32,115 bases of DNA from a virus (IMGVR_UViG_3300021961_000368:1-32115); one strand, 5' to 3'. Positions 6,302 through 32,113 are shown, counted from the stretch's first letter. Notes: a model not told the origin generated them from the letters alone. Numbers and translations: made by a program.

Positions 6302-7356
6302 GCGGCGGCGGCGGTCCTACTTCATCTACAGTCACACAGACAAACATCCCCGAGTACGCTCAACCTTATGTTGAGTCAATGCTGGGGGCGTCTCTTAAAG
6401 AAGCGTTTAACGTAAAGCAAACTGGCACGGGCGCGGATGCGACGTATGACATCCAAAGTGTTAGACCTTATAAGCCGTACAGCCTAGACCCCACTGAGTA
6501 TGTTGCCGGATTCTCTCCGCTCCAACAGGCCGCTTTCCTTGGGGCTGGTCAGCTTCAGGTTCCGGGGCAGATTGGTCTGGGCAGTGACATTACTGCGGCT
6601 GCGGCAGCATCCTCTGCGGATGTTGGGCAACAGGCTATGGGCTATGGCGGCATGGGTGCCGCTACCGGACAAAATTACTTTAACCAAGTTACCGATCCGA
6701 CACGCATTGGACAGTTGATGAGTCCTTATATGCAGAACGTGGTCGAGCAACAGATGTCCGGGGCGCGTAGGCAAGCGGATATTACCCAACAGGCTCGTAA
6801 CGCACAGCTTGCAAAAGCCGGAGCCTTTGGCGGTTCCAGACAAGCAATTGAGCAAGCGGAAGCAAACCGTGCATTAAATACCCAACTGGCTGGCATCGAG
6901 GCACAGGGGCTTCAGTCGGCGTATGAAAAAGCATTGGCTCAGCAACAGGCAGGCACTCAATTCGGCTTGCAAGGATTGGGCGTAGGCTTACAAGGAATGC
7001 AACAGGGTCTTGGGGCACTAGGTCAAGCTGGTCAGATGGCTGGGCAACTTGGTCAGTTGGGAATGCAGCAGCAGCAAGCGGCGACCGGCATCCTCGGACT
7101 CCAACAGCAGCTTGGTGCAACGCAGCAACAACAGCAGCAGAACATCATCAATCAGGCAATTCAGAACTATGCGACGGCGCAGCAGTACCCGCAACAGCAG
7201 CTTGGCTTCCTGAATGCGATGATCCGAGGCATGGCGACACCCACAACTACGGTTGAGAGTTATCAGGCAGCGCCGTCGCTTACGTCACAGCTTGCTGGCT
7301 TGGGTACGGCGGGCATTGCTGGGCTGGGCATGTACAACGCGATGAATAAAGCGTAA
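6298..7356 (+). CDS. DNA ejection/pilot protein (P22 gp7-like)
   Basis: MSGGGG..S.T.T...PEYAQPY N-terminus, Gln/Gly/Ala-rich helices, GAFGGSR motif, hydrophobic Gly-rich C-terminus. Confidence 0.65.
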   Translation: MSGGGGPTSSTVTQTNIPEYAQPYVESMLGASLKEAFNVKQTGTGADATYDIQSVRPYKPYSLDPTEYVAGFSPLQQAAFLGAGQLQVPGQIGLGSDITAAAAASSADVGQQAMGYGGMGAATGQNYFNQVTDPTRIGQLMSPYMQNVVEQQMSGARRQADITQQARNAQLAKAGAFGGSRQAIEQAEANRALNTQLAGIEAQGLQSAYEKALAQQQAGTQFGLQGLGVGLQGMQQGLGALGQAGQMAGQLGQLGMQQQQAATGILGLQQQLGATQQQQQQNIINQAIQNYATAQQYPQQQLGFLNAMIRGMATPTTTVESYQAAPSLTSQLAGLGTAGIAGLGMYNAMNKA

Positions 7357-7367
7357 GTGAGGATGGC

Positions 7368-9152
7368 ATGAGTATCGTTAGCAAGCTGCTTTCTAGTCCA
7401 AGCTCGTTTTCTATTGAGATGCTTCAGCGCGGAGTGCAGTCCGGCACTGTCCCTGCATATATTGGCATCCCGCTGATTCAGCAGAAGATGCAAGAAAAGA
7501 AAGCCATGGCGGGGATGCAAGCGCGGGCTGGGATGCAGCAACAGCAGCAAACACCTACCCCCGCTGAACAAGTGATGGCAGAAGCCGCACAAGAAACCGC
7601 ACCGCGCATGGCCCCAATGGCACAGGCCGCTCCCGGTATCGACGGACTTCAATCAAACCTGCCTACTGAGTACGCTGGCGGCGGCATCGTCGCGTTTGCT
7701 GACGGTGGGGACGTTGAGCGGTATCAGAATCAGGGGTTGATCCCCTACAGGCCAGACCAACAGGAAATTGGTAGGCTATATGACCAAAGAAACCAAGCAA
7801 TGCAGCGTGGTGATCTTTATGAAATGCGGCAGATAGAAAAGCGCCTTGCCGAGCTAAACATGCCTACCGCACCGTCGGCGACACCAACACTACCTAGTAC
7901 GCCTACACCGGCTGAGATGCGCGATGTAGAACGAGCGCGTCGGTCGGAACAAGGCGCAGGGCTTCGCGCTGCCGCAGGTGAGTTCTACAGGGAAACAAAG
8001 CTTGGATCAGAGCCAGACCCGGCGCAGAGGTACGTAATGCGTCGAGGCGCGGACGAATATAGCGGCGCGGTTACGGGTTATGTAGAGCCACCGCCGTATG
8101 TCCGAGATATATACCCGGAAACAGCAGGGACGCGTGGGCTACCGTCTATCTCTGCTCCCGCTACACCTACCGCTAGTAGCTCAGCAGGTAGTAAGACGGG
8201 GGATGGGTCAGGAATTATGGGGCTTGGGACTGGATTACGCGCAGCTAATTTCCCAGCAGCGCCGTCCGGTCCTTCGGCTACCGAGATTACACAAAACGCG
8301 TTGCAGGGAGTTGGCGAAGAAGGTGTTGGAGGGTATTTTGCGCGCTCTCAGGAACGTGAGCAGCGGCTTATGGATGCTCTTAGCAAAGACCGCCTGCAAG
8401 GAAAAGCCTTTGAAGGGTACGAGGCTTCGCTAAAAAATGAAGCTCTCCAAGCCGGTGCCGATAAAGAGCAAGCTAAGTACATGTCGTTGTTTAAGGCCGG
8501 TCTCGCAATGATGTCAGGCACCTCGCGGCATGCGCTTCAAAACATCGGTGCCGGGGCTATGGTTGGCGCGGAAGATTACCAGCGGGCCTACAAAGATCTT
8601 AAGAAAGCCGAAAAAGAACGCACTAAAGAATTTGCGCTTATCGAACAGGCCCGTCGTGCTGAGCAAAATAATGATCTTAAACGGCGCGATGCGTTGCTGA
8701 TGCGGGCCTCGGATGCAGCCCAAAAACGTGATGACTTTGGTACCCAAGCACTTATTAACGCGGGTATTAAAGATGCTGATCGGGCAGCGGATATGTGGAA
8801 AACGCAGTACAACGCGGCGGCTCACGAGAATATTGCTCATATTACGGGTGGGTACAGCCTAGCGGGGGCACAAGTCCGCGCAAATCGTCTTGCAGGGATT
8901 ACTCCGTACCAATTAGCGTCGCTTCGAGACAAAGTGGCTAAAGGTATAGACATCTATGATGTGCGGTCTGAATTGGCTAAATCGCTTAGAATGAGTAAAA
9001 CTCCTGCACCCGGTCAGGACGCTGAATTTGACCGGCGCGTCAATGAAGCATACGCCAGACGCGTAGACGAAAGAACGGCCCAACGGTTAAGCGGTTCTAC
9101 TGGTGCGAACACTCAATCGTTCGCGGGGTATAAGTTGGTGGGGCCCGAATAA
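7368..9152 (+). CDS. Internal virion/DNA ejection protein
   Basis: 594 aa, GAGG RBS, helical Ala/Gln-rich. Lies between the pilot protein and the giant protein. Carries a YAGGGIVAFADGG motif. Confidence 0.55.
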   Translation: MSIVSKLLSSPSSFSIEMLQRGVQSGTVPAYIGIPLIQQKMQEKKAMAGMQARAGMQQQQQTPTPAEQVMAEAAQETAPRMAPMAQAAPGIDGLQSNLPTEYAGGGIVAFADGGDVERYQNQGLIPYRPDQQEIGRLYDQRNQAMQRGDLYEMRQIEKRLAELNMPTAPSATPTLPSTPTPAEMRDVERARRSEQGAGLRAAAGEFYRETKLGSEPDPAQRYVMRRGADEYSGAVTGYVEPPPYVRDIYPETAGTRGLPSISAPATPTASSSAGSKTGDGSGIMGLGTGLRAANFPAAPSGPSATEITQNALQGVGEEGVGGYFARSQEREQRLMDALSKDRLQGKAFEGYEASLKNEALQAGADKEQAKYMSLFKAGLAMMSGTSRHALQNIGAGAMVGAEDYQRAYKDLKKAEKERTKEFALIEQARRAEQNNDLKRRDALLMRASDAAQKRDDFGTQALINAGIKDADRAADMWKTQYNAAAHENIAHITGGYSLAGAQVRANRLAGITPYQLASLRDKVAKGIDIYDVRSELAKSLRMSKTPAPGQDAEFDRRVNEAYARRVDERTAQRLSGSTGANTQSFAGYKLVGPE

Positions 9153-9161
9153 TAAGGAAAT

Positions 9162-12100
9162 GTGATGCCGATCTATCGTGTTCAAGCTCCTAACGGCAAA
9201 ATCTATAAGGTAGAGGGGCCAGACGACGCAGATCCTAATACCCTATTTAGCTTCGTACAGCAACAACTTGAGGGCGAAGAGACTCGGCGATTACAAAAGG
9301 AGTACGGTCCCGGCATCTTTAAGACCTTCACACAAGGCGTAGGTCGTGGCGCGGGGGAGCTTGGCTCTCTTGTTACGGACATTATTCCTGCAATGGCAGG
9401 GTCTGCGCTTGGGTTTGAGGACTATGCCAAGGAACAATTAGCGGAAGCCGCGCAAAAACGCCAAGCGCGTGAACTGGAAGCTCCTCCGGTATTCCGTTCG
9501 TATAAAGATGTTGAAGGCTTTGGAGATGCGCTGAAGTTTGGCGCTGAAGTCATTGGCGAGCAGATACCCAATATCGCAACGTCTTTGATTCCCGGTGTCG
9601 GGGGTGGCGTTTTAGCTGGTCGCGCTGCGTTAACTACTGCTGGCAAAGCTCTTGCTACACAGGCGGCAGAACGTGGGCTTGTTGGTGAAGCGGCTACGGC
9701 ATTCGTTGCTGAGGGTATGAAACGCGCTGCACCACAGGTGGCAGCTAGAGCGGGAATGGGTACGAACGTCGGAACCTTCCTTGGATCTTACGCGCAGAAC
9801 GCTCCGGAGGTTTTCCAAAACGTCTTTGAGGAAACAGGCCAATTAGAACCCGGCGTAGCGATGTTGTTTGGAGCGGGTTCTGCTGCTCTGGATTCAGTGC
9901 TACCCGCGACATTGGCTAGGCAGCTTACCGGTCCTATGAAGGTCGGTATCGTTGAGAAGGTTCTTGAGAAGTCCGGAATGGACAAGGGGCTGCTGCGTAG
10001 TGTTACCGCAGGCATGCTCAAAGGTGCGAACGTGCTCAAAGGAGTGCCCGTAGAGGGGCTAACCGAAGGCGCTCAGGAAGCGATCAGTATCGCGGCTGAA
10101 AAGTTCGTAGCCAACAACCCACAAATCTTTGAGAGCAAAGAGTGGGACCGCATCATGGAGTCCAGTGTCCGTGGCGCGATTGCTGGTGGCGCATTTAGCG
10201 CTGCTGGTAGTGGTGTGGAGCGGATGCGGGAGCGGGTGCGGGAGCAGTATAAAGAACAAATCGACGCGGCGGCACAGGAGGCTGCACAAACGGGCGAGCC
10301 GGTTCCGCTTCAGATTGGATATGACCCCAACGTAAGTGCGCCTACCACGTATGGCGGGCAAACCATTTACGTATATCCGGACGGCTCTACACAGTTTGTC
10401 AGTGAAATGACCGATGAGGCGATGGCTGAGAAGTACCCAGAGCCAGAAGCCCCGGTGCCTCCTGAACAGCGAGCCAAAGAAGAAAAGGCGGCGGCGGTTC
10501 GTGCGCGGCAGGCGGAACAACGGAAAACTGCGCAATTAAAAGAAGACGCGGCGAAGCTCAAAAAAGCTATTGCCGATCTAACGGCGGTGCCGACCGATCT
10601 CGTTTCGTTAGCAAAAGGTCCGACTCCATTAGAACAGACAATTCGTCAAGCGCAGGGTGAACTGGATGTACTAGGTGCAAAGCGTGCCCCAAAAACTCCT
10701 AGCGCACCCGTAGCCGCACCCACAACCGCACCCACAACCGCACCCGTAGGCGCACCTGCCTCTATTCCGGGGATGGAAGGTACTATCATCAGTGACACCA
10801 AAGCATTTGGTAAGCAGCTTGGTGTCGGCCCTACGGCCAAAATGCTGAAAGCCGTAGCGGGTAAAGATCTTTCCAACCCCGCAGACGTAGCCGAGGTCAG
10901 ACAGATACTGGAGGCTTATGCGTCGGGCAAGCCTGCTGTCGGTGCCGCAGAGAAGATCGAAGCGTTCCTCAACCGTCCAGAGTTTCAAATTGCCGAAGCG
11001 GAGGTGCCAAGTGAACCTACTACAAGACCTGACGTTGGAGCAGTTGGGGCTGGCGTTCCAAGTGTTAGCGAAGGCGCAGGAGATGTCGGAGGTGGAGGTG
11101 CCCCCGCAGTTGGAGAGTCTATCGGACTCGGACTGGGCGAGACTGGAGATGTTACTGGACAGCCTGCTGCTGGAGAAGAACGCGTCAGTCCTGCACTAAC
11201 TGAAGAAGCTGCCCTAAAACCGGAACCGGAAACTATTAGCCCCCGTACTGAAGAACGTATACAAGAATCGGCGGTACGGCAAGCTAACTTTATTGCTGAA
11301 TTAGACGCTGATGTAGATAAACTCCTCAACCAGCGATTCCAGCAGCAAGCCGAGCAACAGGGCGTTCCCTTAGACGCTATCCCGTCAGAAGATTATCGTG
11401 GGTCTGAAGCGCATAACATTCTACGACTGCCTAGATTGTTTGCGCAGCATCGTGACTCTATGGACATGCTCCAGACATCCACGGACGAAGCTCAGCGTTC
11501 ACTCAACGAGCGGCAGATTGCCCAGATAGAAAAAGCCATTGCGGACGCAGGTCCGGATGCTGTTCAGCTATTCCAACGACTGCAAGCCACGCCAGTAGAC
11601 AAGCAAAATGCTGTTTTGTCTCAACTTAATCAGATGGCTATTCGGACGTTCGACGCCCAAGCTAAAGATAAAGTTGCGCAAGCTAAAGCCAGTACAGAAG
11701 TGCCGGGCGCTGCGCCCTCTAAGAAATCCAAAAAAGCTCTGACGGATGAGGAGCTTGATGCGTTAACGCATGAGTTTAATAAGCGGCATCAAAAACGTGG
11801 CGGCGGAAAACTCTTCTTGCCTGCATACAGAGGGGCTAGTCTTGACGCCACTGGTAAAGATCTTGCCATCAGCGGTGACTTGCGTGGGCTGATCGACCAT
11901 CTCCAAGCGCGGGCCACGAACCCCATAGTCCGGGGGATGCTCGCCAAAATCAAACGGTTGAACCTTAAGACGAAGATTGTCGTTAGGAATCCTGAAGGCC
12001 CGATGGCCTTGCGCACTCCTGAGTTTCAACGTTGGTTTGGGGGTAGCAAGGTTGTCGATGAAAATGGCAATCCGCTGGTGGTGTATCACGGTACGTCGAA

Positions 12101-15100
12101 AGACGTGGACTTTAACAAGTTCAAACTGCCGAAGAACGGCGCATGGTTTACGACAGACCCAGAAAGTGCTTCGCAATACGCCGTTGAAAACGACAGCATG
12201 GGCTTCAAATATAACCGTGACACAAGGAATTTCGACGAGATCAATACAGCCGCTCGCGTCATGCCGGTGTTTGTGCGTATTGAAAACCCCTACACCCTGA
12301 CGGCAGAAGAACGCGCTACGCTGCTCAAGGCCGCTAACTACAACAAAGCCCAAGGCGTAATTTTTGAACGTGCCAAGGCACAGGGGTACGACGGCATCCG
12401 CATGGGTGACGGCATTTGGGTTGCTATCAAAGACCCCACACAAATTAAATCCGCCATTGGCAATGTAGGAACATACGATCCCACCAGCCCGGACATTCGT
12501 TACGCCGCCAACAAGGCTGGTTCATTTGACCCCCGCACCAACACAATCGCGCTGGACCCCGATAACGGATTGAACGAACACACGGTGCTGCACGAGTTGA
12601 TGCACGCTGCTATCTCCCATGTGCTGCGCAACCCGAGCCTGCCGGTCACTAAGCAACTGACCGAACTGTTTGATGGAATCCGAGGTCAGATGGGTACTGC
12701 CTATGGTGCCCAAGACATTCAGGAATTCACGTCTGAGTTGTTTAGCAACCCAGAATTCCAAGCACTGCTCAAAGGGATCAAGGCTCCTAAGAGCGGCAGT
12801 CTGTTCAAACGGATTGTGCAAGCACTGGCAAACTTCTTTGGATTTACCAAAGGTACAAGTGCCTATGACCGGGGCATGAAGCTCGTCAACGACGCGCTAG
12901 ATATCTCTGCTGAGGTAGAGCCGTCTGTGAGCGACATGATGTTCCTTGGCACACCAAATCTCATGCGCGAAGCGTTTAATGTCGTGGGGGATATTGGTCG
13001 TGCGATGCCATCGTTAGCTGGACGCACCGTAGAAAGCACCAAAAACTCTCTGTCGAACGCCCCGTCGGATCTGAAATCCATGGCGCTCAGCCTTTTGCGG
13101 CTGGACAACCTTAACACCATTTATGGGAAAGAACTGCCTTCTATCCAGACTCTGACCGACAACATCGAGTTGCGTAACGGGATGCAGGAGAAGGCGGTTG
13201 CGGAAATCAATAAGAACTACAAGTTCTTTGAGGAAACGCAGAAGAAATTCCCGGCTCAGTTTAAGGTCATGGAAGACATGGCCTACGATGCTCGCTTGGA
13301 AATGGCGGACCCCAAAGATCCAGACTTCCTAAAACAGACTGGGCTGAGCGCCAAACAACAGCAGGAATATCGGCGGCTGCGCAACATCTACAACTCCTTA
13401 CCCGCAGATGTGCGTAAGACCTACGACATGATTCGGGACGCGTACACTAAGGCGATTGACGACTACGAAGCCATGCTGGTGGGCGATCCCGACAAAGGTA
13501 TTCCGGGGCTTGTCGATTCCTCGGTCGCTGCCAAACTTAAGCTGCAATTCCAAGCCAAGAAGCGGCAGATTGCCTACATTCCATTTCTGCGTAGGGGCGA
13601 CTTCTGGGTTGAGTACGACATAGACGGGGAACGTGCGGCTTCCGCTTTCCAATCAATCCGTGAGCGTGACCGCTTTATCCGGCAAGAACTTGCGCCCAAG
13701 GGTATCCAATACCGGATGTACCAGAACATTGAGAACCAAAGCTTCCAACAGGGTACGTTGCCACCGACCAGTTTCATCGTGGGGGTGATGGCGGACCTAA
13801 ACAAGCAAGGTGCTAGTCAAGAGATTAAAGATAACGTCTATCAGGCGTATCTGGCGCTGTTCCCCGCTGCGTCCATCTCCAAGAACTTTATGAAAGCCGA
13901 CAATGTTCGGGGTATGGAGCGGGATATTGCACGGGGGTATGCGGAGACCATGGTTAAATGGTCCCGTAAATTGGCTAATACCAAGTACGCTGGTCCTATC
14001 AATCAAGCGTTCGACGCTATTGACGGGGAAGCTGAAGCGGTAAATGACCCGAGTGTATATGCCGCTGCGCAGAATATTCGTAACCGGCAAAACTTTATCA
14101 ATAACCCAACGTATAACAAGCTAACGTCCGCAGCCACGAGCCTTAGTTATTTCACGTTCATCGCGGGTAACGTGTCCTCGGCACTGGTGAACTTATCTAC
14201 GTTGCCTCTGTTCGCATGGCCTATGCTGGGAGGACGGTTTGGGTTTGATAAAGCTACGTTTGCACTAACGGGCGCGACAAAAATTGCGAGTATGTATGCA
14301 CTCAAAAAGAAGGTTCCGGGTAAGTACGCAAGGCTGTTTGACGTATTAAATGACCATGCGCAGTTGGAACATACGATGGCGCGTGAGGTGCTTGAGGGGC
14401 GTAGGCAGACCACCGCAGATTATCTGGGGTTCAAAGCTAGGGTAATGGACCTCATCTCTAAGCCGTTCCATATTTCTGAGGTGATGAACCGGGGGGCTAC
14501 CGCAATCGCGGCGTATGAGTTGGCGCTGAAGGGCAATCCCGCGCTGAAGATCCCGGCTATGAACGAGGCGGATGCCATCAGGTATGCGCTGAGCGCCGTG
14601 AAAGATATGAACACGTCAGGCTTGTCTGCCAGCGCCTCGACATACATGCAGCACCCGCTTGGTCGCGTGATGCTTACGTTCAAGTCGTTTGCGTGGAACC
14701 AAGCTGCGTTGATCGCACGGGCCTTCCATCAGAGCGTTAAGGGTGAGTCCCCTGAAGTTCGCAAAGAAGCCTTTAGGCAACTGGTCGGCACCTACGGAAT
14801 GGCGATGGCTCTTGCGGGGGCCAACGGGATGCCCTTTATGGGGGCCGCTTCGGTCTTGGCGAACATGATTAATGCCCTGCTCGGAGATGATGACGAGCCG
14901 TTTGATTTTGATGTACTGATGCGCCAGTGGACAAATGAGTTGTTCTATAAAGGGTTGCCCAACTACTTTCTGAATTTGGAAGTCTCTAACCGTATCGGTG
15001 TGGCAAACGATCTACTCTTCCGTGATGACCCCCGTGGCGTTGCTGAGGATGGCTACGTGATGACTGCGCTTAGGCAGTTGGCTGGCCCTCTTGGGTCTTA

Positions 15101-15620
15101 CGCAGTGGGCGTTGAGAACGGGGCAAAGCTTATGCGGGAAGGCAACGTGCAGCGGGGGATTGAGGCCGTACTTCCCAGCTTCTTACGGAATGCGCTGAAG
15201 GGTGCGCGGTATATGTCCGAGGGCGCACTTACCCTCAAAGGCGACCCGATTGTCGATGATGTTTCCGTGTACAACGGAGTCATGCAGATGCTTGGGTTTA
15301 CTCCCGCAGACCTGTCTCTTGCCTACGAAGATGTATCTATGCGGAAGGGGTATGAGCGAGAGATCTTGGCGCAGCGCAAGCGGTTGCTGGATAGGTACGA
15401 GATAGCCCGCACTACCGACGATTACGACTTGATGGAAGAAGTCCGGGAAGGGATCGCTCGGTTCAACGACAGGCGCATCGACCCGAAAGCGCGGATCAGT
15501 TCCGATACCCTGCGGCGGTCCATGAAGGCAAGGGAAGCTGCCGAGAAGAACATGATCAACGGGGTGCGCTTCAATAAGCGGCTGATGCCCGAAATCACCG
15601 ACCTGCTGGAAGAGGAGTGA
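9162..15620 (+). CDS. Large polyvalent/injected virion protein with ART-like, HExxH zincin-like and PLxRFG-like regions
   Basis: 2152 aa. ART-PolyVal-like segment (F..WFG.SKVVD.NG.PLVVYHGT...WFT...P.QIKSA.GN.G.YDP...DIRY), HELMH motif, YIPFLRRG motif. AAGGA RBS; start is GTG 9162 or ATG 9165. Confidence 0.8.
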   Translation: MMPIYRVQAPNGKIYKVEGPDDADPNTLFSFVQQQLEGEETRRLQKEYGPGIFKTFTQGVGRGAGELGSLVTDIIPAMAGSALGFEDYAKEQLAEAAQKRQARELEAPPVFRSYKDVEGFGDALKFGAEVIGEQIPNIATSLIPGVGGGVLAGRAALTTAGKALATQAAERGLVGEAATAFVAEGMKRAAPQVAARAGMGTNVGTFLGSYAQNAPEVFQNVFEETGQLEPGVAMLFGAGSAALDSVLPATLARQLTGPMKVGIVEKVLEKSGMDKGLLRSVTAGMLKGANVLKGVPVEGLTEGAQEAISIAAEKFVANNPQIFESKEWDRIMESSVRGAIAGGAFSAAGSGVERMRERVREQYKEQIDAAAQEAAQTGEPVPLQIGYDPNVSAPTTYGGQTIYVYPDGSTQFVSEMTDEAMAEKYPEPEAPVPPEQRAKEEKAAAVRARQAEQRKTAQLKEDAAKLKKAIADLTAVPTDLVSLAKGPTPLEQTIRQAQGELDVLGAKRAPKTPSAPVAAPTTAPTTAPVGAPASIPGMEGTIISDTKAFGKQLGVGPTAKMLKAVAGKDLSNPADVAEVRQILEAYASGKPAVGAAEKIEAFLNRPEFQIAEAEVPSEPTTRPDVGAVGAGVPSVSEGAGDVGGGGAPAVGESIGLGLGETGDVTGQPAAGEERVSPALTEEAALKPEPETISPRTEERIQESAVRQANFIAELDADVDKLLNQRFQQQAEQQGVPLDAIPSEDYRGSEAHNILRLPRLFAQHRDSMDMLQTSTDEAQRSLNERQIAQIEKAIADAGPDAVQLFQRLQATPVDKQNAVLSQLNQMAIRTFDAQAKDKVAQAKASTEVPGAAPSKKSKKALTDEELDALTHEFNKRHQKRGGGKLFLPAYRGASLDATGKDLAISGDLRGLIDHLQARATNPIVRGMLAKIKRLNLKTKIVVRNPEGPMALRTPEFQRWFGGSKVVDENGNPLVVYHGTSKDVDFNKFKLPKNGAWFTTDPESASQYAVENDSMGFKYNRDTRNFDEINTAARVMPVFVRIENPYTLTAEERATLLKAANYNKAQGVIFERAKAQGYDGIRMGDGIWVAIKDPTQIKSAIGNVGTYDPTSPDIRYAANKAGSFDPRTNTIALDPDNGLNEHTVLHELMHAAISHVLRNPSLPVTKQLTELFDGIRGQMGTAYGAQDIQEFTSELFSNPEFQALLKGIKAPKSGSLFKRIVQALANFFGFTKGTSAYDRGMKLVNDALDISAEVEPSVSDMMFLGTPNLMREAFNVVGDIGRAMPSLAGRTVESTKNSLSNAPSDLKSMALSLLRLDNLNTIYGKELPSIQTLTDNIELRNGMQEKAVAEINKNYKFFEETQKKFPAQFKVMEDMAYDARLEMADPKDPDFLKQTGLSAKQQQEYRRLRNIYNSLPADVRKTYDMIRDAYTKAIDDYEAMLVGDPDKGIPGLVDSSVAAKLKLQFQAKKRQIAYIPFLRRGDFWVEYDIDGERAASAFQSIRERDRFIRQELAPKGIQYRMYQNIENQSFQQGTLPPTSFIVGVMADLNKQGASQEIKDNVYQAYLALFPAASISKNFMKADNVRGMERDIARGYAETMVKWSRKLANTKYAGPINQAFDAIDGEAEAVNDPSVYAAAQNIRNRQNFINNPTYNKLTSAATSLSYFTFIAGNVSSALVNLSTLPLFAWPMLGGRFGFDKATFALTGATKIASMYALKKKVPGKYARLFDVLNDHAQLEHTMAREVLEGRRQTTADYLGFKARVMDLISKPFHISEVMNRGATAIAAYELALKGNPALKIPAMNEADAIRYALSAVKDMNTSGLSASASTYMQHPLGRVMLTFKSFAWNQAALIARAFHQSVKGESPEVRKEAFRQLVGTYGMAMALAGANGMPFMGAASVLANMINALLGDDDEPFDFDVLMRQWTNELFYKGLPNYFLNLEVSNRIGVANDLLFRDDPRGVAEDGYVMTALRQLAGPLGSYAVGVENGAKLMREGNVQRGIEAVLPSFLRNALKGARYMSEGALTLKGDPIVDDVSVYNGVMQMLGFTPADLSLAYEDVSMRKGYEREILAQRKRLLDRYEIARTTDDYDLMEEVREGIARFNDRRIDPKARISSDTLRRSMKAREAAEKNMINGVRFNKRLMPEITDLLEEE
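10704..10757 (+). repeat. 12-bp tandem repeat (about 4.5 copies) encoding an APVA/APTT linker
   Basis: gcacccgtagcc gcacccacaacc gcacccacaacc gcacccgtaggc gcacct. Confidence 0.85.
11011..11199 (+). CDS. Overprinted 62-aa acidic helical protein in the +1 frame of the giant gene
   Basis: GGAGGT at 11000-11005, 5 nt before GTG. Translation MNLLQDLTLEQLGLAFQVLAKAQEMSEVEVPPQLESLSDSDWARLEMLLDSLLLEKNASVLH*. The host frame here is a low-complexity linker. Confidence 0.6.
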   Translation: MNLLQDLTLEQLGLAFQVLAKAQEMSEVEVPPQLESLSDSDWARLEMLLDSLLLEKNASVLH

Positions 15621-15646
15621 AAAAAACCCCGGCATTGCGCCGGGGT
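15620..15646 (-). terminator. Rho-independent terminator of the minus arm (possibly bidirectional)
   Basis: Minus strand reads ACCCCGGC-GCAAT-GCCGGGG-TTTTTTT: a GC-rich stem followed by a U7 tract, at the convergence of the two arms. Confidence 0.9.
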
Positions 15647-15677
15647 AACATCTTCTCTAGGAGGAGAAGGAGAGTGC
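15620..15677 (-). ncRNA. Predicted ~58-nt small RNA with an anti-RBS 5' seed
   Basis: Lies between a sigma70-type promoter (15684-15712) and the terminator, with no ORF. Predicted sequence GCACUCUCCUUCUCCUCCUAGAGAAGAUGUUACCCCGGCGCAAUGCCGGGGUUUUUUU. The 5' end is complementary to RBSs at 20148, 20551 and 31361. Confidence 0.65.
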
Positions 15678-15683
15678 AGTGCG

Positions 15684-15712
15684 ATTATAGGCTACACCCT
15701 CCAGACCCGCAA
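15684..15712 (-). promoter_or_regulatory. sigma70-type promoter TTGCGG-N17-TATAAT for the predicted sRNA
   Basis: -35 at 15707-15712, exact 17-nt spacer, perfect -10 at 15684-15689. Only about 60 nt lie between it and the terminator. Confidence 0.7.
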
Positions 15713-15886
15713 TCCATATTTCCCGTTCTCAATAACGTGTTTACACAAGATACCCACCCTCATACGGCGCGCTTCTGATTCTACAAACCGCTGCGTGAGT
15801 TTGCGGTCGATACAAGGCACGAAGAACGACGTGTCTGGTTGGAATTTAGCCCAATCAATCAGTAGTGGTAGGCCCAGTATCTTCAT
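15692..15886 (-). CDS. Small hypothetical protein (possible DNA-binding), last gene of the early arm
   Basis: MKILGLPLLIDWAKFQPDTSFFVPC...GKYGLRVWRV. The SFFVP...G.RVWR pattern recurs in small phage proteins. Overlaps the primase stop. Confidence 0.6.
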   Translation of the reverse strand: MKILGLPLLIDWAKFQPDTSFFVPCIDRKLTQRFVESEARRMRVGILCKHVIENGKYGLRVWRV

Positions 15887-18707
15887 CTTTGAGTAGCACC
15901 GTATCGTCAAAGAACTCCAATCTGGAGGTATCGAAGCACAGGCAGTTCACCGCAGCTTGGGTGTTGGCGACAGTGCCAGCGGTCATGCGTTTTTTCTTGA
16001 TCTCCACCAGCGCCTTAGTCTTGTGATACGGGGCCAGTGATTCATCAAAGTTCATAAAGTTCTTGGCGCAATCATCCCGGTACGCCTTGGTCATTACGTA
16101 CAGCATCTTGGTATCTGGTTCGTATCGTGCGGTCAAAGCCCCACGGGGTTCGCGGATCGGGCCGTGCTCAAGGCCGGTGTGCTTATCACTCTTGCCGTTG
16201 ATTACTAAAATCTCGTGGAAGTGACGTTGCAGGAACCCGCCGAGATACTCATCAGCGTCGAACATGTGCTCCCGATTTTTTGCACGTGTAGTCTGTATGA
16301 GATTGATCCCAAAGTCGAACACCGGCTTTATCTCAATATCGTGCAGCCCCAGCTTCTTAGCGATAGACCCTCCAGTTACGGCAAGCATCACCGCTGTTGA
16401 CCAGTACCGTTCTGTGTTGCGCACCGTTGCGGCGGCATCGACCTTCTCGTGAATACCCCGCATCATGTCCTGTACTGACGGTAGCTGCGAAATAATAGTT
16501 TGGGCGAACGGCTCGGCGGCATGCCCGTAGTTGGTCAGCAGTTGCGCGAAGTGGTTCCGCGACCAGCCTGTATCTGCCCCCTCTTCCGGCTTTATGGGGA
16601 TCTCAAGAACACGGTTCAACTCCCCATCTGGAAAGCTCTTTATAGAGAGTAACGCGTCGGGGACTGACCTATTGCTTGAAGAAATTACACAGGTAGCAAA
16701 GCTTGTGTGGTTCAGGCGCTCAGCGTTTTCATGCTGCCTCATCCGGTTCTTACCTCGGCTGGATGTCACGTCATAAATCTGTTGGGACATTTGATCCGGC
16801 GGCATATTGGTGATTTCATCCAGAGTCACGGCGAAATTACGCATGGTCCCAAAGCGTTGCATGCGGGAGTTGTACGTATCTTTTGGGTACAGCAGGAGTT
16901 CTTTGGGCCTGCCGTAGATACTGTTGATCGCATGCAGAACCGTAGTCTTGCCTGACCCTGACTCGCGGCTCATCAAGTTGAGCAAGAAGCCGTCGAGCGG
17001 CGTGAACTTCATCAGCATAGCCCCAAAGCCCATGAAGAATGCGAATGCGCGGCCCTCCATTCCGGGTCTGTTGTATGCGTTGATGATGTCTTTCCACACG
17101 TGGAAATCACCTTTGGCGGTGAACAACGGCACCAGCGGTAGTGTTGGTGTGGAGGGGGGACTGTAGACGATTTCAGTCGCCCGAATCTCCCGGTCTCCAA
17201 GAATGATGGCTGAATTATCATCAACCCACCCGAACTGCTTGTGCGCTTTTTCTGCTTGAGAATTCATTTGTAGCTCCTCTACCCACTTAGTCACGTACCA
17301 CATAAGAATGTCCTGCTGCTTGCTTAAAACGGCGACGCCTTTGGATGCGATTGCTTCCCTAAACTTGTCTTTTGCCAGTACCGATGCCAGCGGCATGATG
17401 AACTCCCTCACCCCGTCCTTGGGTAAGTGCAGCCGCAAAAGCAAAGTCTCCCCGGCGTCCGGGTCCAGCATTCGTTTGACGACGTAAAAGTCGTATGGAT
17501 AAACAACTTCGTCTTTGTCGTTTCCGTCCGCATCTTTGCTGCGAATGAACACACCCCCGCTCTTGCCCCTGAAGAATGGGAACGGATACTTCGGGACTAC
17601 ATATTCTTTTACTTCCTGTGTAGCAGCTTCGACCCCGACGACCTTGCTGTCCTCTTCGGTTGCCTCTACGATCTCTTTCCCAAGTTGTATGGGGGACGTG
17701 ATCTTGAGTGTGCAGCCTTCGCACAGGCTCGGGTTTAAGCGTTTGAACGTCTCACAGGTGTATGGACCCTTTGTCTCGTTGGCTTTCCTCTCGGTATCCT
17801 CGGCGTTGTACTCCGGGTACCCCTTACTGATCGCGTGGATTGCTTTGTCTCTGTCCACACATTGCTGCGCAATCGACAGTCCCGCCCGCCATAGTGGCTC
17901 GTCAATCGTGGATTGGTTCTCGTAGATGTTCGCTATCTGTGCGCAGCCGGTGCCTTCTACCGATTTAATCAATATGGTCTTGAACCGAGACTGGCTTGAC
18001 CCCATCAGGGCGAGTGTTACCGGGTCCAGCGGGCGTTTCTGAAACGTCTTTGTCAGTGCCTCTAGTACGTCCTCATCTGGCTTGAGGAGTTCCGCCATAA
18101 CTTCATTGGCTACGGGCGGCGCTACATACAGAAAATCTACCGGGATCGGGTTAGTCGGATCTTTTACGTGCAACGTAAGCGGTACTCGCAGCACCCGTGC
18201 AGCATCGGCGGGAACTGCGTAATCAATATCAAACTTGTCTGCGGTACACAGCTTCTTTAGCTGCTCAGCTAACGGCTTCCACTCGGTGCGAGGCATGGCC
18301 TCTTCAAGCACCCAGTAGACATGCGCACCCCGCCCGGATCGAATCAATGTCGGGCGTGGAAGTTTGTGCGTCCTACAAAATGCTTTGAGTGCGACTAACC
18401 CATCTTCCAACGTGTCGTATGGCTTACCGGGACCACAATCGAGGTCAATAAAAAAGCTCTTCAGAGATACCGCATTTGCAGCAAACCGCCCGTTTTTGGC
18501 AGCAGCAAACTTCGCCACCGCAAAAAATACGTTAAAGCCTTCATCCCCAAGGGCTGTGGACTTCGCATCGAGATCATCAAGGTCAATCGCGGGGCGCTGC
18601 TTAACTACTTCCCGGTTGTTGACTATCTTTAGACCCCAGCTAAAGTAGCACTCCCCTTCGTCCAGAGGCGGGAGTATTAACTGTAAAAACTCCTTGCGTG
18701 AAAGCAT
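15855..18707 (-). CDS. Primase-helicase: AEP/RepB-like primase, Cys-containing linker domain, DUF927 and P-loop helicase
   Basis: FFIDLDCG, SGRGAHVYW and D.ARVLRVP primase motifs; C..PYTC.TF....C.GC; Walker A ESGSGKTT; Walker B VTLDEIT. AAGGA RBS. Confidence 0.85.
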   Translation of the reverse strand: MLSRKEFLQLILPPLDEGECYFSWGLKIVNNREVVKQRPAIDLDDLDAKSTALGDEGFNVFFAVAKFAAAKNGRFAANAVSLKSFFIDLDCGPGKPYDTLEDGLVALKAFCRTHKLPRPTLIRSGRGAHVYWVLEEAMPRTEWKPLAEQLKKLCTADKFDIDYAVPADAARVLRVPLTLHVKDPTNPIPVDFLYVAPPVANEVMAELLKPDEDVLEALTKTFQKRPLDPVTLALMGSSQSRFKTILIKSVEGTGCAQIANIYENQSTIDEPLWRAGLSIAQQCVDRDKAIHAISKGYPEYNAEDTERKANETKGPYTCETFKRLNPSLCEGCTLKITSPIQLGKEIVEATEEDSKVVGVEAATQEVKEYVVPKYPFPFFRGKSGGVFIRSKDADGNDKDEVVYPYDFYVVKRMLDPDAGETLLLRLHLPKDGVREFIMPLASVLAKDKFREAIASKGVAVLSKQQDILMWYVTKWVEELQMNSQAEKAHKQFGWVDDNSAIILGDREIRATEIVYSPPSTPTLPLVPLFTAKGDFHVWKDIINAYNRPGMEGRAFAFFMGFGAMLMKFTPLDGFLLNLMSRESGSGKTTVLHAINSIYGRPKELLLYPKDTYNSRMQRFGTMRNFAVTLDEITNMPPDQMSQQIYDVTSSRGKNRMRQHENAERLNHTSFATCVISSSNRSVPDALLSIKSFPDGELNRVLEIPIKPEEGADTGWSRNHFAQLLTNYGHAAEPFAQTIISQLPSVQDMMRGIHEKVDAAATVRNTERYWSTAVMLAVTGGSIAKKLGLHDIEIKPVFDFGINLIQTTRAKNREHMFDADEYLGGFLQRHFHEILVINGKSDKHTGLEHGPIREPRGALTARYEPDTKMLYVMTKAYRDDCAKNFMNFDESLAPYHKTKALVEIKKKRMTAGTVANTQAAVNCLCFDTSRLEFFDDTVLLKDEDTGPTTTD

Positions 18708-18796
18708 GGCCGTCCTTAACGCGCCGTCAAAGAGAGGTTGGGCAGGGGCGTGACGGCGACACCCTTTTCGGTAGCGAACCTAGCCCCCTCAAACCT
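18708..18796 (-). promoter_or_regulatory. Structured 5' leader of the primase-helicase gene (or a replication-origin hairpin)
   Basis: Inverted repeats CGCCGTCA/TGACGGCG (18722-18729/18751-18758), AGGTT/AACCT (18735-18739/18792-18796) and GGGGC/GCCCC (18745-18749/18783-18787), interleaved. Confidence 0.5.
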
Positions 18797-20146: not shown

Positions 20147-20156
20147 TGCACTCTCC

Positions 20157-20549
20157 TTAGCGTTTGACAATCACAACTGTTTGAGACACATCCGCGTTTA
20201 GCCCCGGAGGATGTAGATCGGGGTTCTCTTCGAGAAACTGCTCCATGTTCGCCGTGTTGATGCGTTGGTACAGCAACTGCATGGCGTCTTGGTCTTTGAC
20301 GAATTTATAGAAAGCATCCCAGTCGGTAGGCCAAAACCGCTTGGACGTTCTTCTTGAGATGGTTCCGTATTCGGTGCGTATCGTAGAGGCACCCTGCTCT
20401 TTGCAGATCTCCAATAACTGTTTGGCAATTATGTCTAATTGCTCTTCCAGTTCCTTGTCCTGCTTAGCAAGTTCCCTACGTCGCTCACGAATCTTGACGT
20501 AGACTTTTGTGAGTTTGTCGGCGGTACACGCCTCTGTTTCTTCGATCAC
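20157..20549 (-). CDS. Conserved phage replication-module protein (N-terminal coiled coil)
   Basis: 130 aa: coiled coil, then T..GT, DWDAFY.F and PPG motifs. GTG start with AAGGAG RBS. First gene after the promoter at 20582-20609. Confidence 0.7.
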   Translation of the reverse strand: MIEETEACTADKLTKVYVKIRERRRELAKQDKELEEQLDIIAKQLLEICKEQGASTIRTEYGTISRRTSKRFWPTDWDAFYKFVKDQDAMQLLYQRINTANMEQFLEENPDLHPPGLNADVSQTVVIVKR

Positions 20550-20581
20550 TGCACTCTCCTTCGCTTGTAAAAGGAACCCCT

Positions 20582-20609
20582 ATTATAAGGGTGTGGTTTA
20601 CATTGTCAA
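20582..20609 (-). promoter_or_regulatory. Consensus sigma70 promoter TTGACA-N16-TATAAT
   Basis: -35 at 20604-20609 and -10 at 20582-20587. Points into the 20549-acb2-ssb-HTH-primase operon. Confidence 0.85.
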
Positions 20610-22153
20610 GTATCTTCGATCACATTTTTATATAGGTCTATGACCCTCGTGTGGATGTCCACTTTTTCTGACAGCATCTTGTAGACACGATGCTCGACAG
20701 GACTCCCTCGTAGATGCACCACCGTACAGGGGTTGCGTTGCCCAGCGCGATGCACTCGTGCATTGGCTTGCAAGTACGTTTCGATGGAGGTGATCGGCCC
20801 CCACCATACTACGACATTCGCGGCGTGTAGCGTCACACCATGTGCGGCGGCTTGTGGTTGGATCACAAGCACTTGAGGGTCGGGTTCCGTCTGGAACCGC
20901 GCAAAAATCTCGGTGCGCTTAACGGCGCTGACTCCACCGTGGATGACCTCGGCTGCAATCTTACGCTTCTTAAGCTCGTCCGAGATGATCTCAATCGCGT
21001 GCTTGAACGGCACGAACACGATCACCTTATGACTCGCCTCGTTGATCACCTCGATCAGTGCTTCCATGCGGTTCTTCGCATCGAACGCAACTACCTCCCC
21101 AGTATCGGAGTAGACTGCGCCACCTGACAACTGCAAGAGCTTGTTCAGATTCGCGGCTGCGTTGACCGTGGTGATCTCTTCACCCGCTGCTACCGTCATC
21201 ATGTTCTTACGGATGGCTTCGTAGAATTTCTTTTGTTGCGCAGTCAGTGGTACGTCCCGGTTCACGTAGGTCATGTCCGGAAGGTCGAGGCACTCTTCCT
21301 TCGTAAAACGTATTGCTGGTTGCAGCGCGTCGTGTACTGTTTCTTCTGAGTTGCGCTTGGGCACCCACTTAAACTGTGTGATCTTGAGCATCACCATGTC
21401 GCGGAACGCGCCGAAAAACTTGGGCACCCTGCTCGGCACGATGAGCTTGGCAAGTCCGTAAGCGTCCGTCGGTGACTGCGAGGCCGGGGTACCGGTCAAC
21501 ATCCAAACCCAAGTGTCGGCTTTAATTAAACTGGCCAGCGCCTTCCATCGTTTTGTGCTGACGTTTTTGTAGGAGTTTGCTTCATCGACCACGATCAGAT
21601 CAAAAGCCGCAGCCTCGATCTCGTCTCGGATAATCTCCACCCCATCGTAGTTAATGATAACGAACTCTGCATCGCTTTTGATCGCCTCGACGCGCCGCTC
21701 TTTGGAATAGCTATGGGCTATAGCTACTGTCCGGTGCATAGCGAACTTAAATAGATCCGCTTCCCATGCTGACTGCATGATCGACAACGGACAAAGCACA
21801 AGCACCCGCTTGATGTGCCCTTCATTCAGTAGGTAGTCCGCAGCCCAGATAACGCTTGAAGTCTTGCCGGTGCCCTGTTCGTTAAAACAAAACGCCCGTC
21901 GATGCAAGGTCAGGAACGATGCGGTTTTCTTCTGATGGTCAAACGGTTTATACAACCCCGGCCATGCGTACTTGGCGCTAATCGGGGAGGGTACATTCTT
22001 GATGCGCAGATTCTTTAGCACCTGCGCTTCTTCCAGCCCCCACTTGACCAGCACTTCGCCTGAATCCAGCACCTTGGACTTCGGGATGACGGTTGTTATG
22101 CGGTTGGGTTCTCTGACCCTTAGCAGCAACGCTTTATCGTCTATGATTTGCAC
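20606..22153 (-). CDS. SNF2-like superfamily 2 helicase
   Basis: EQGTGKT (motif I), VVDEAN (II), LTGTP (III), HGVTL (V), QANARVHRAGQ (VI). Confidence 0.92.
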   Translation of the reverse strand: MQIIDDKALLLRVREPNRITTVIPKSKVLDSGEVLVKWGLEEAQVLKNLRIKNVPSPISAKYAWPGLYKPFDHQKKTASFLTLHRRAFCFNEQGTGKTSSVIWAADYLLNEGHIKRVLVLCPLSIMQSAWEADLFKFAMHRTVAIAHSYSKERRVEAIKSDAEFVIINYDGVEIIRDEIEAAAFDLIVVDEANSYKNVSTKRWKALASLIKADTWVWMLTGTPASQSPTDAYGLAKLIVPSRVPKFFGAFRDMVMLKITQFKWVPKRNSEETVHDALQPAIRFTKEECLDLPDMTYVNRDVPLTAQQKKFYEAIRKNMMTVAAGEEITTVNAAANLNKLLQLSGGAVYSDTGEVVAFDAKNRMEALIEVINEASHKVIVFVPFKHAIEIISDELKKRKIAAEVIHGGVSAVKRTEIFARFQTEPDPQVLVIQPQAAAHGVTLHAANVVVWWGPITSIETYLQANARVHRAGQRNPCTVVHLRGSPVEHRVYKMLSEKVDIHTRVIDLYKNVIEDT

Positions 22154-22173
22154 TCTTTCCCCATACGCCGACA

Positions 22174-22202
22174 GGCCGAAAGTGGTATTTCCACTCTCAG
22201 CC
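22174..22202 (-). promoter_or_regulatory. RNA hairpin upstream of the helicase RBS
   Basis: Minus strand GGCUGAGAGUGG-AAAUA-CCACUUUCGGCC: a 12-bp stem whose two G-U pairs only form on the mRNA strand. No U tract follows. Confidence 0.55.
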
Positions 22203-27161: not shown

Positions 27162-27382
27162 GTGTTCTTCTCCTTGATCTTTGCAAGAACTGCGCGTCCT
27201 TTGTCTGTCAGCCGTTCAATCGCAACGGGGCCAGACGGGGAATCTCTGAACGCACTCTTGCCAAGATACCCGCGCCGAATCAGCGACCAGTAAGTGTTCC
27301 AGCTTCCCGGTCGGTCATTGAACAGCCGAAACCCCCAGCCTTTCTCGAACATTTTGAGCATAAAGATTTGTTGCGGACTCAT
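27158..27382 (-). CDS. Hypothetical protein (possible winged-helix)
   Basis: 74 aa, bounded by junction repeats on both sides. SLIRRGYL...LTDKGR pattern. Ends in KEKNT. Confidence 0.7.
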   Translation of the reverse strand: MSPQQIFMLKMFEKGWGFRLFNDRPGSWNTYWSLIRRGYLGKSAFRDSPSGPVAIERLTDKGRAVLAKIKEKNT

Positions 27383-30244: not shown

Positions 30245-30504
30245 TTGCACTCTTCCTTGATTTGTTGATACTCGTCATACGATATGTAGATCACGATTAC
30301 ATCTTCTTCTAGCTTGCGTCCTATACGTTCTCCTCTCCTAGATTTATTAACATTTGTTAATCTGAGCAGCGCAAACCGCTCTGACACGAACTTCGGCGCT
30401 ACCGCCAAGTTTGGGATGTCTATGAACTCGATGTCTCGATTGTCTATGGCCCGAATGGAATGCACTTGGTTGCTGTCGAATGTAACGCGGACTATGTAGC
30501 GCAT
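30241..30504 (-). CDS. Hypothetical protein
   Basis: 87 aa, downstream of a promoter. Resembles the C-terminal part of the 30574-31359 product (AP..V.E..A.LRL.....G). Confidence 0.65.
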   Translation of the reverse strand: MRYIVRVTFDSNQVHSIRAIDNRDIEFIDIPNLAVAPKFVSERFALLRLTNVNKSRRGERIGRKLEEDVIVIYISYDEYQQIKEECK

Positions 30505-31359: not shown

Positions 31360-31369
31360 GGCACTCTCC

Positions 31370-32113
31370 TTAAAACATAGAAAGAATCTGATCGACCTTG
31401 GACTTCACATCTAAACGTGTTGTATCGCTCTCTCTGAGATCCTTAGCTGATACTCCAACGATTGCTGTCTCAAGCTGTTTACGGGCAGTCTCCAGTTTGG
31501 TATCGCCCGTCACGTTCAGCTTAGTCAGCAGCCCGCACAATTCCACCGCATTAGTGACCAGCGTGTCGCGGAAGATCTGAGTCTTGATGACCTCTCCGTC
31601 TTTGCTGGTGCGCGGTGATTCCGAGTCGGCCAGCTTCTCACTCATCCGAGTCAGACATTCATGGAGCCTGCTCCACGCATCTTGCATAGCTTCTGACAAC
31701 TTGTTCTGATAAAACGATTCGTACTGGGATTTCAACTCCCCGAGATGCTCCTCGTTCACGTCAATCCTGAAGTCCCCGATCTCCGGCACGGGCAGGAACA
31801 CATACCGGAACTTGAACTTATCCTCCAGCTTGTGCGCGTCGGGATACTCGTCTGCATCGAACAGATCGCCTAGCTGGAACGCAGCCGCACTCACCAGCGT
31901 CGGGTACTCGGTCAAGAACTCATCGACCGCTTCCTTGAACTGAATCTCGTAGTCGGCCAGCATTGCCTTGTAGTCAAAGAAGTTCTTCATGGGCAGCAGC
32001 CGCGAACCCGCATCCGACCACGGCAGTGTCTGCTCGTAGTGCCACACGCGAATCGCACCGACAAGTTTCTGCAACTCGGCCAGCTTGCCAGTGTTGCCGA
32101 GCAGCGCCTTGTG
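31370..32113 (-). CDS. Conserved phage protein, possibly DUF3150-like (5' end outside the window)
   Basis: Frame is open to the window edge (HKALLGNTGKLAELQK...). HY..TLPW.D.G.RLLP and LG.LF...EYP motifs, IFRD.LV. Family name is tentative. Confidence 0.6.
   Translation of the reverse strand, partial: HKALLGNTGKLAELQKLVGAIRVWHYEQTLPWSDAGSRLLPMKNFFDYKAMLADYEIQFKEAVDEFLTEYPTLVSAAAFQLGDLFDADEYPDAHKLEDKFKFRYVFLPVPEIGDFRIDVNEEHLGELKSQYESFYQNKLSEAMQDAWSRLHECLTRMSEKLADSESPRTSKDGEVIKTQIFRDTLVTNAVELCGLLTKLNVTGDTKLETARKQLETAIVGVSAKDLRESDTTRLDVKSKVDQILSMF

What the first reader, a model, noticed from the sequence alone, without database searches (positions are those of the whole stretch)
15620..15712. 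Candidate phage sRNA regulon: a ~58-nt RNA whose 5' seed is antisense to the RBS of several early genes
Seen: a complete non-coding unit on the minus strand, with TTGCGG-N17-TATAAT, a predicted +1 near G15677, and a GC hairpin plus U7 terminator. The RNA would begin GCACUCUCCUUCUCCUCCU, contain a CUUCUC/GAGAAG hairpin with a CUCCUA loop, and end in the terminator. Locus 15666-15681 is a perfect 16-nt complement of the SD plus GTG start of gene 20549 (20547-20562). The 11-mer AAGGAGAGUGC also sits at the RBS of acb2 (20148-20158) and of gene 31359 (31361-31371). An arbitrary 11-mer is expected about 0.015 times on both strands of this window, although SD enrichment raises that. The shared motif ends exactly at the predicted +1. 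Established: phage regulatory RNAs exist (P4 CI, P1 C4, lambda OOP), and bacterial sRNAs repress by 5'-seed pairing to the RBS. Inference: a trans-acting, multi-target translational repressor of replication and anti-defence genes, acting as an early-to-late timer or an RNA-based immunity/lysogeny switch. It could also be released from the 3' end of the early operon as negative feedback.
Basis: partly seen in the sequence, partly recalled or inferred. Interest (0 to 1): 0.93.

Follow-up and report, generated by a model that had tools for sequence, protein, structure and literature searches.

The report
Phage sRNA addressing its early genes
A clade of uncultured aquatic phages keeps a tiny predicted RNA gene whose predicted exposed front end is the mirror image of the ribosome-binding sites of five to seven of the phage's own early genes and changes in step with them, so it likely switches those genes down as a group.

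Summary
Observation confirmed and widened. At 15620-15712 (minus strand) lie a sigma70-type promoter, an unpaired 5' seed (GCACTCT), a hairpin and a terminator. The unit sits at the same place in 80 of 82 related phage sequences (primase 41-100% identical). Its complement lies at 5 of 23 early and 0 of 9 late gene starts in the window, and at 29 of 405 versus 1 of 351 over 15 records. Seed and the DUF7307 ribosome-binding site agree in 56 of 61 distinct pairs; two more are compensated. Cognate pairs beat swapped pairs across primase clades (p<=0.0025); four control genes do not. One lineage lost the unit and both testable sites. Against: a sister-pair sign test was not significant (p=0.21), the G-U test was inconclusive, one lineage keeps the seed but lost four usual sites, and no transcript was seen. 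No integrase or CI-type repressor was found, so a lysogeny role is weak; acb2 seems a passenger. Nearest family: Betaproteobacteria toxic sRNA (RF02278, 29.7 bits, cut-off 50), not a member. This scan noted four similar anti-RBS phage RNAs on other DNA (unchecked notes).

The parts
15620..15677 (-). predicted small RNA, about 58 nt (5' end predicted)
   Evidence: same unit in 80 of 82 related sequences; single copy per record
15707..15712 (-). -35-like hexamer TTGCGG, inside the last codons of the 64-aa ORF
   Evidence: Leu codon here is TTG/TTA in 52 of 52 distinct cases, against 35% in the primases
15684..15689 (-). -10 hexamer TATAAT
   Evidence: TA..T hexamer in 62 of 63 distinct elements; spacer 17-18 nt in 61 of 63; lies after the ORF stop in 18 of 62
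15670..15677 (-). 5' seed GCACTCTC, predicted single-stranded
   Evidence: GCACTC in 43 and CA[CT]TC in 52 of 63 distinct elements; mean unpaired probability >=0.75 in 43 of 52
15652..15669 (-). hairpin 1, 6 bp with anti-SD loop CTCCTA
   Evidence: per-sequence folds give a hairpin here in most relatives with changed sequence; the MAFFT consensus fold did not recover it
15620..15646 (-). intrinsic terminator, also the end of the leftward early operon
15692..15886 (-). conserved 64-aa ORF of unknown function whose 3' end holds the promoter
   Evidence: no Pfam; Atlas lead DUF7303 on 13% of a rank-23 cluster
15855..18707 (-). primase/helicase-like protein (DUF927), upstream neighbour used to find relatives
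9162..15620 (+). convergent giant virion protein (ART-PolyVal, LPD39); its stop codon overlaps the last base of the U tail
20547..20562 (-). predicted target 1: SD and start of DUF7307 gene 20549-20157
   Evidence: net -19.2 kcal/mol; co-variation
20582..20609 (-). consensus promoter TTGACA-16-TATAAT in front of DUF7307-acb2-294aa-HTH-primase
   Evidence: TTGACA within 120 nt upstream of the start in 42 of 46 distinct motif-bearing DUF7307 leaders
20147..20158 (-). predicted target 2: RBS of acb2 (20146-19922, PF24729)
   Evidence: net -14.6
22149..22156 (-). predicted target 3: start of the SNF2 helicase (site overlaps the GTG)
   Evidence: net -12.5
30246..30253 (-). predicted target 4: RBS of 125-aa HTH (TrmB-like) gene 30244-29867
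   Evidence: net -13.0; motif at the like gene in G016
31361..31371 (-). predicted target 5: RBS of 261-aa gene 31359-30574, no family
   Evidence: net -13.4; motif at like genes in G002, G004, G016, G018

Best explanation
The element is a conserved single-copy unit of promoter-like boxes, seed, hairpin and terminator that likely makes a ~58-nt trans-acting RNA, whose seed is complementary to a motif written between the Shine-Dalgarno sequence and the start codon of selected early genes, where pairing would block ribosome loading. Shown by sequence: anatomy, conservation, target placement, co-variation. Inferred: transcription by host sigma70 polymerase from G15677, nucleation at the unpaired seed, unzipping into hairpin 1 to cover the SD, repression of translation, probable Hfq help. 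More weakly inferred (about 0.45): the RNA builds up with genome copy number and so turns early and replication genes (helicase, DUF7307 operon head, DUF3150, 261-aa and HTH genes) down during a lytic infection.
For: Unit present in 80 of 82 sequences that reach the small ORF's end, window included; 23 of 23 IMG/VR hits of a -10+seed pattern lie behind that ORF and before a terminator. Constraint is on bases, not protein: TTR-only Leu codon 52 of 52, seed after the stop in 11 and frame-shifted in 2 of 48. In the window the element is the only stretch that is an 11-nt complement of two or more gene starts; the five AGAGTGC starts have the five best net energies of 21 early starts tested. GAGTGC at 29 of 405 early and 1 of 351 late starts, the one being a false ORF on the element's own opposite strand. 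Seed GCACTC and DUF7307 GAGTG[CT]: both 39, neither 17, seed only 3, site only 2 of 61; those 2 (L064, L066) have ACACTC facing GAGTGT. Other matched changes: L079/L081 ATTCTTCTCCT vs AGGAGAAGAAT, sister L073 13 nt with C vs G, L057/59/60/63 AAGCACTC vs GAGTGCTT, L102-L108 TCCTCTTGGT vs ACCAAGAGGA. One random sequence per primase cluster, 30 draws: DUF7307 p max 0.001 (25 clusters) and 0.0025 (15), helicase and 294-aa gene mostly significant, HTH, primase, 97-aa and exonuclease genes not. L058/L093 lack the unit and the motif is decayed at both testable sites. Two complete genomes not used before carry it at 6 and 7 early starts. The motif ends 0-4 nt from the start codon in 46 of 46 cases but 51-105 nt from TTGACA.
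Against: No transcript, 5' end or repression was observed. Independent sister pairs: 9 for, 5 against, 7 ties, sign p=0.21; sign-flip on magnitudes p=0.03. The G-U versus A-C test did not favour RNA pairing (11 G-U, 21 A-C, 21 transversions, on a set that includes non-targets). L039 keeps an intact seed but lacks the motif at DUF7307, the 73-aa gene, the 261-aa gene and DUF3150, with one new site. L007 and L088 also lack the exact DUF7307 motif; L111 pairs weakly. The concerted loss is one event in a 66%-complete record. Without clade thinning the HTH control was also significant. Gene starts come from my own heuristic; the L075 element and start were set by hand. The -35 is weak.
Confidence: 0.72

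Rival explanations
1. The motif is a DNA operator (for example for the 76-aa or 125-aa HTH protein); the copy at 15667-15677 sits on a transcription start and the others near early promoters.
For: The DUF7307 copy lies just behind a consensus promoter in most relatives; two HTH genes are present; the G-U test was inconclusive.
Against: Sites track the start codon (0-4 nt) more tightly than the promoter; acb2 and 31359 sites lie in gaps of about 10 nt behind a stop codon with no listed promoter; gene-start sites are always sense and the element always antisense; in L102-L108 the matching stretch is some 35-45 nt inside the RNA; L058/L093 keep the 76-aa HTH but lost element and sites.
Confidence: 0.09
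2. The RNA is mainly a host-directed anti-Shine-Dalgarno inhibitor like the betaproteobacterial toxic small RNAs; matches to phage genes are secondary.
For: Best Rfam likeness is RF02278, full-length, same two-hairpin CU-rich plan; CTCCT in the head of 50 of 63 elements; L039 keeps the seed without most phage sites; overexpressed ncS27 slows growth (PMC5688073, passages).
Against: The variable, non-SD part of the seed follows phage RBS changes; a host-directed RNA would be expected to select against matching sites in essential phage genes (inference).
Confidence: 0.07
3. There is no separate small transcript: the seed acts from the 3' end of the primase-operon mRNA or from a processed piece of it, as negative feedback.
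For: The terminator also ends the early operon; the small ORF reads through the seed in 37 of 48 cases; the -35 is 3 of 6.
Against: -10 and spacing are kept at base level, with the seed 6 nt behind the -10 in most, as expected of a primary 5' end.
Confidence: 0.07
4. Same pairing, but its job is immunity: it keeps a carrier or lysogenic state and silences superinfecting kin, as c4 and CI RNAs do.
For: Clade-specific seeds resemble immunity-group drift (inference); a host-type promoter could fire in a dormant state.
Against: No PF00589 in 15 records (4 at least 90% complete), no PF00239 or PF00717 in 5 complete records; no relative of the primase in GTDB genomes. A non-integrating carrier state is not excluded.
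Confidence: 0.04
5. The stretch is a leftover or duplicated plus-strand RBS, or a plus-strand decoy for an RNA-binding protein.
For: Read on the plus strand it is SD plus GTG.
Against: The plus-strand frame is 3 codons in the window and reaches 40 codons in only 5 of the 36 close loci that hold the element; promoter and U tail point to the minus strand.
Confidence: 0.01

Closest known systems
Betaproteobacteria toxic small RNA / Burkholderia double-hairpin RNAs (Rfam RF02278; also anti-hemB RF02837, ncS16 RF02866)
   Same: 57-92 nt, two hairpins, CU-rich unpaired 5' end and loop complementary to RBSs (PMC5688073 passages); full-length match at 29.7 bits.
   Different: Below the cut-off of 50 in every scan; phage-borne and single-copy, not 3-5 chromosomal copies; seed GCACTCT rather than a plain anti-SD; predicted targets are its own genome's early genes.
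c4 antisense RNA of phages P1/P7 and P4 CI RNA
   Same: Phage RNA that controls phage genes by short pairing (PMC8201110 passages; pairing details recalled).
   Different: No C4 match; c4 acts on the icd-ant region of a temperate phage, whereas these sites are spread 4.5-15.7 kb away over several operons in phages with no integrase or S24 repressor found.
Trans-acting phage or satellite sRNAs SviR (PLE), VpdS (VP882), PreS (lambda)
   Same: Trans pairing or Hfq-linked control of several mRNAs during infection (10.1101/2022.04.08.487710 abstract; PMC12197685 part 1).
   Different: Those come from a satellite or temperate phages and are described as acting on helper or host mRNAs or host sRNAs; none is described in the parts I read as having a shared RBS address co-evolving across the phage's own early genes.

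Membership tests
RF02278 toxic small RNA | covariance-model score at or above 50 bits | tested here: not met
   29.7 bits window; 28.4, 25.5, 24.9, 20.2 in relatives
RF02278 toxic small RNA | short double hairpin with CU-rich unpaired 5' end and loop | tested here: met
RF02278 toxic small RNA | several chromosomal copies in Betaproteobacteria | tested here: not met
   one copy per phage record; the 3 GTDB pattern hits have no terminator or phage genes
RF02278 toxic small RNA | toxic to E. coli when cloned | not testable with these tools
   needs an experiment
c4 antisense RNA (RF01695) | match to the C4 model | tested here: not met
   absent at gathering score and among 23 matches to E 10
c4 antisense RNA (RF01695) | targets within its own icd-ant immunity region of a temperate phage | tested here: not met
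   sites 4.5-15.7 kb away; no integrase, resolvase or S24 repressor found
trans-acting 5'-seed sRNA (functional class) | own promoter and intrinsic terminator | tested here: met
   by sequence conservation only
trans-acting 5'-seed sRNA (functional class) | conserved unpaired seed complementary to several translation starts | tested here: met
trans-acting 5'-seed sRNA (functional class) | seed and target co-vary | tested here: met
   the sister-pair sign test alone was not significant
trans-acting 5'-seed sRNA (functional class) | G-U-tolerant (RNA-type) mismatch pattern | tested here: inconclusive
trans-acting 5'-seed sRNA (functional class) | transcript, Hfq binding and repression shown | not testable with these tools
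   needs an experiment

The most novel reading that the evidence does not exclude
Virulent phages run RNA-addressed regulons: the phage writes a short address into the SD-to-start spacer of any gene it wants shut off after the early phase, and one small RNA, possibly tamed from the betaproteobacterial toxic-sRNA plan, reads that address as a copy-number-driven early-to-late timer with no protein repressor; genes that insert behind such a junction, such as acb2, join the regulon at once.
Probability: 0.35. Interest if true: 0.86.

Novelty: new variant of a known kind. Interest (0 to 1): 0.72.

Why it matters
What small RNAs do in lytic phages is described as unclear, and prediction as limited by the lack of homologue sets (PMC8244752 passages). 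Here is a family of 63 distinct sequences with named targets, natural compensatory pairs and a natural loss, so the mechanism can be tested at once in E. coli reporters by swapping natural seeds and natural RBSs. If it holds, temporal control of a virulent phage can rest on a 58-nt RNA, and odd RBS spacers in phage genomes become a readable sign of such regulons.

Tried and rejected
Rfam at gathering score: nothing in the window or 7 relatives. Sequencing runs: no RNA holder listed. Cultured phages: no DNA match; best protein matches are 28% (primase) and 40% (helicase) to Pseudomonas phage Rollin and 22%/40% to Rhizobium RHph phages; Rollin's junction has overlapping genes and RHph_TM29's has only a terminator hairpin, so no cultured model was found. 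GTDB: no primase relative; 3 pattern hits are chance; host not identified. Consensus folding on the MAFFT alignment gave 3 pairs only because loops of varied length misalign; I relied on per-sequence folds. The pattern was ill-made (it cannot match the overlapped SD+motif form) and is disregarded. The hand-picked 18-clade matrix (p=1e-5) was chosen after seeing the data and is not relied on; one search replaces it. Protein-coding constraint as the cause of conservation was rejected. The AAGGAGAAGAAC junctions at 26871-28306 pair weakly (net -3 to -10) and are not counted as targets. A second RNA against the AACAGGAGT sites of the earliest genes was sought and not found in 5 records. Literature searches showed no description of this element. 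In PMC10690425 (10,006 viral candidate RNAs) six motif spellings had no hit in 3 of 6 listed supplements; the other three and three larger files could not be searched, so it may be catalogued there. The original toxic-sRNA paper was not available.

Full report
Setting. The window is a 32-kb virus record with virion genes on the plus strand ending in a 2152-aa protein at 15620, and replication and early genes on the minus strand: primase-like DUF927 protein, HTH, a 294-aa protein of unknown function, Acb2 (PF24729), DUF7307, SNF2 helicase, PD-(D/E)XK nuclease, DNA polymerase A and many small ORFs. The element fills the gap where the two arms converge. Complete relatives are 62-65 kb. No cultured phage is closer than 40% in the helicase, and the host is unknown.

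Observation. The 11-mer has three exact copies on the minus strand, all at gene starts; with one mismatch allowed there are 6 matches against 0.36 expected. The 7-mer AGAGTGC occurs 7 times on the minus strand, 5 of them at starts: 20549, 20146, 22153, 30244 and 31359. These five have the best net pairing energies (-12.5 to -19.2 kcal/mol) of 21 early starts tested; the next is -11.5 at an uncertain start near 29526. An unbiased scan for any stretch complementary over 11 nt to two or more starts finds only the element in the window. Two cautions: with +1 at G15677 only 12 of the 16 matching bases are transcribed, and unrelated 15- and 16-nt inverted matches exist in the window.

Conservation. 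Two primase searches of IMG/VR gave 111 loci (the second kept the best 80 of 298 confirmed). Of 82 sequences (window included; L001-L003 are near-identical to it) that reach the end of a small conserved ORF behind the primase, 80 carry a -10-like hexamer, a pyrimidine-rich head and a terminator (79 by rule, L075 by hand), giving 63 distinct elements. L058 and L093 have none: the ORF stop overlaps the late gene's stop. An independent pattern scan gave 23 hits, all 23 at this position with a terminator. The promoter lies in or just behind the ORF's last codons, so protein constraint had to be excluded: the Leu codon at the -35 is TTG or TTA in 52 of 52 cases against 35% in the primases, the -10 persists after the stop in 18 of 62, and the seed is non-coding in 11 and in another frame in 2 of 48. 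These counts are not independent of ancestry. Per-sequence folds mostly give the same plan, open seed, hairpin, linker, terminator; the seed is at least 75% unpaired in 43 of 52. The most distant clades differ: L094-L096 add a 5' hairpin, L100-L109 are 86-101 nt with CCTCCT loops, and L071 and L111 match my sequence model only in the terminator.

Targets. With a heuristic gene caller of my own, GAGTGC lies at 29 of 405 early-strand and 1 of 351 late-strand starts in the window plus 14 records (some only partly fetched); the single late case is a false ORF on the element's opposite strand. The recurring targets are DUF7307, the helicase or a 73-aa gene inserted in front of it, DUF3150, the 261-aa gene, the 125-aa HTH gene, VRR-NUC and in some clades the 294-aa gene. 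Two complete genomes examined last, G016 and G018, have the motif at 6 and 7 early starts, with 3 and 1 background hits. Acb2 was found in 6 of 112 sequences, and its RBS is the junction that precedes the 294-aa gene in L013 and L052; I infer it entered the regulon by insertion.

Co-variation. Among 61 distinct element/DUF7307 pairs, seed GCACTC and site GAGTG[CT] are both present in 39, both absent in 17, seed only in 3 and site only in 2; the last two have a changed seed ACACTC facing GAGTGT. Further matched changes are seen in L073 versus L079/L081, in L057/59/60/63, L067/L070, and L102-L108, where a new 10-nt stretch matches both DUF7307 and VRR-NUC starts. In the L076-L091 clade the motif has moved into the first codons and the duplex spans the start codon. 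All-against-all energies gave cognate -16.9 versus -14.2 (p=0.0002), but the HTH control was also significant there. With one random sequence per primase cluster, 30 draws, DUF7307 stayed at p<=0.001 (25 clusters) and p<=0.0025 (15 clusters), helicase and the 294-aa gene were significant at the median, and four control genes were not. The strictest test, 21 independent sister pairs, gave 9 for, 5 against, 7 ties (p=0.21), p=0.03 on magnitudes. In the lineage without the element, the motif is decayed at DUF7307 and at the 73-aa gene while sisters keep it; this is one event in an incomplete record. Against: L039 keeps the seed yet lacks the motif at four usual genes, and the G-U test did not favour RNA pairing.

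Mechanism. Most likely host sigma70 polymerase makes a 58-nt RNA; its open seed nucleates on the spacer between SD and start codon, and pairing runs on into hairpin 1 to cover the SD, which by established sRNA biology blocks 30S loading. The U tail suggests Hfq use (inference). With no integrase, resolvase or S24 repressor found, I favour shut-down of early and replication genes in a lytic cycle over immunity. A DNA-operator reading stays open at about 0.09, because the main target follows a strong promoter, but the site keeps 0-4 nt from the start codon while its distance to TTGACA runs 51-60 and once 105.

Comparison. Rfam has no member-level match. The nearest model is RF02278 at 29.7 of 50 bits, end to end; the Burkholderia double-hairpin RNAs have the same plan and predicted RBS pairing but chromosomal, multi-copy, host-metabolic context (PMC5688073, PMC4603805, PMC7011215: passages). 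This hints at a betaproteobacterial host but does not show it. P1 c4 is the nearest phage precedent (PMC8201110 passages; details recalled). A 2025 review (PMC12197685, parts 1-2 of 6 read), the SviR preprint (abstract) and eight searches showed no such self-directed multi-operon regulon in a virulent phage; the viral RNA catalogue PMC10690425 (passages, 3 of 6 supplements) could not be fully checked. Four earlier AI notes of this scan describe similar anti-RBS RNAs in unrelated phages; I did not test them, and none is on look-alike DNA.

Verdict. A real, conserved element, best read as a new family of trans-acting phage sRNA with a self-targeted early-gene regulon: a new variant of a known kind. 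Confidence in RNA-RBS repression 0.72; interest 0.72.

Noticed in passing
window 18724-18790 (-): int-alpA RNA motif (RF02996) at 35.4 bits, cut-off 35.8, in the primase leader; the like place scores 39.2 in G016 and 33.7 in G002, none in three other complete records.
   Followed up: partly
G001 33517-37242, G002 6918-10479, G004, G006 (earliest genes, AAA/DUF2201 region): The SD sits in a palindrome (TTAAC AGGA GTTAA core) repeated at several earliest genes, like a CsrA-type loop or an operator. Six of 63 elements carry CTCCTGTT, its complement, in the loop, but G001 and G004 have the sites without it.
   Followed up: partly
window starts 26871, 27161, 27382, 27642, 28306 (-): Five small genes share the junction AAGGAGAAGAAC before the start codon, a repeated cassette boundary; weak pairing to the element.
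   Followed up: partly
window about 22175-22200 (-): Short hairpin in the helicase leader kept with base changes in relatives; possible cis-regulatory RNA.
   Followed up: no
window 15692-15886 (-): Conserved 64-aa ORF overlapping the primase end, no Pfam family, weak DUF7303 lead.
   Followed up: partly
L102 12969-13069 and L100-L109: Longer form of the RNA with three or four hairpins and CCTCCT loops; best Rfam likeness suhB/mmgR 29.8 of 41 bits.
   Followed up: partly
window 9162-15620 (+): Giant virion protein with an ART-PolyVal ADP-ribosyltransferase and LPD39 domain, DarB-like by PHROG.
   Followed up: no
window 26167-26871 (-): Early gene with a sigma-70 region 4 domain; possible transcription regulator.
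   Followed up: no
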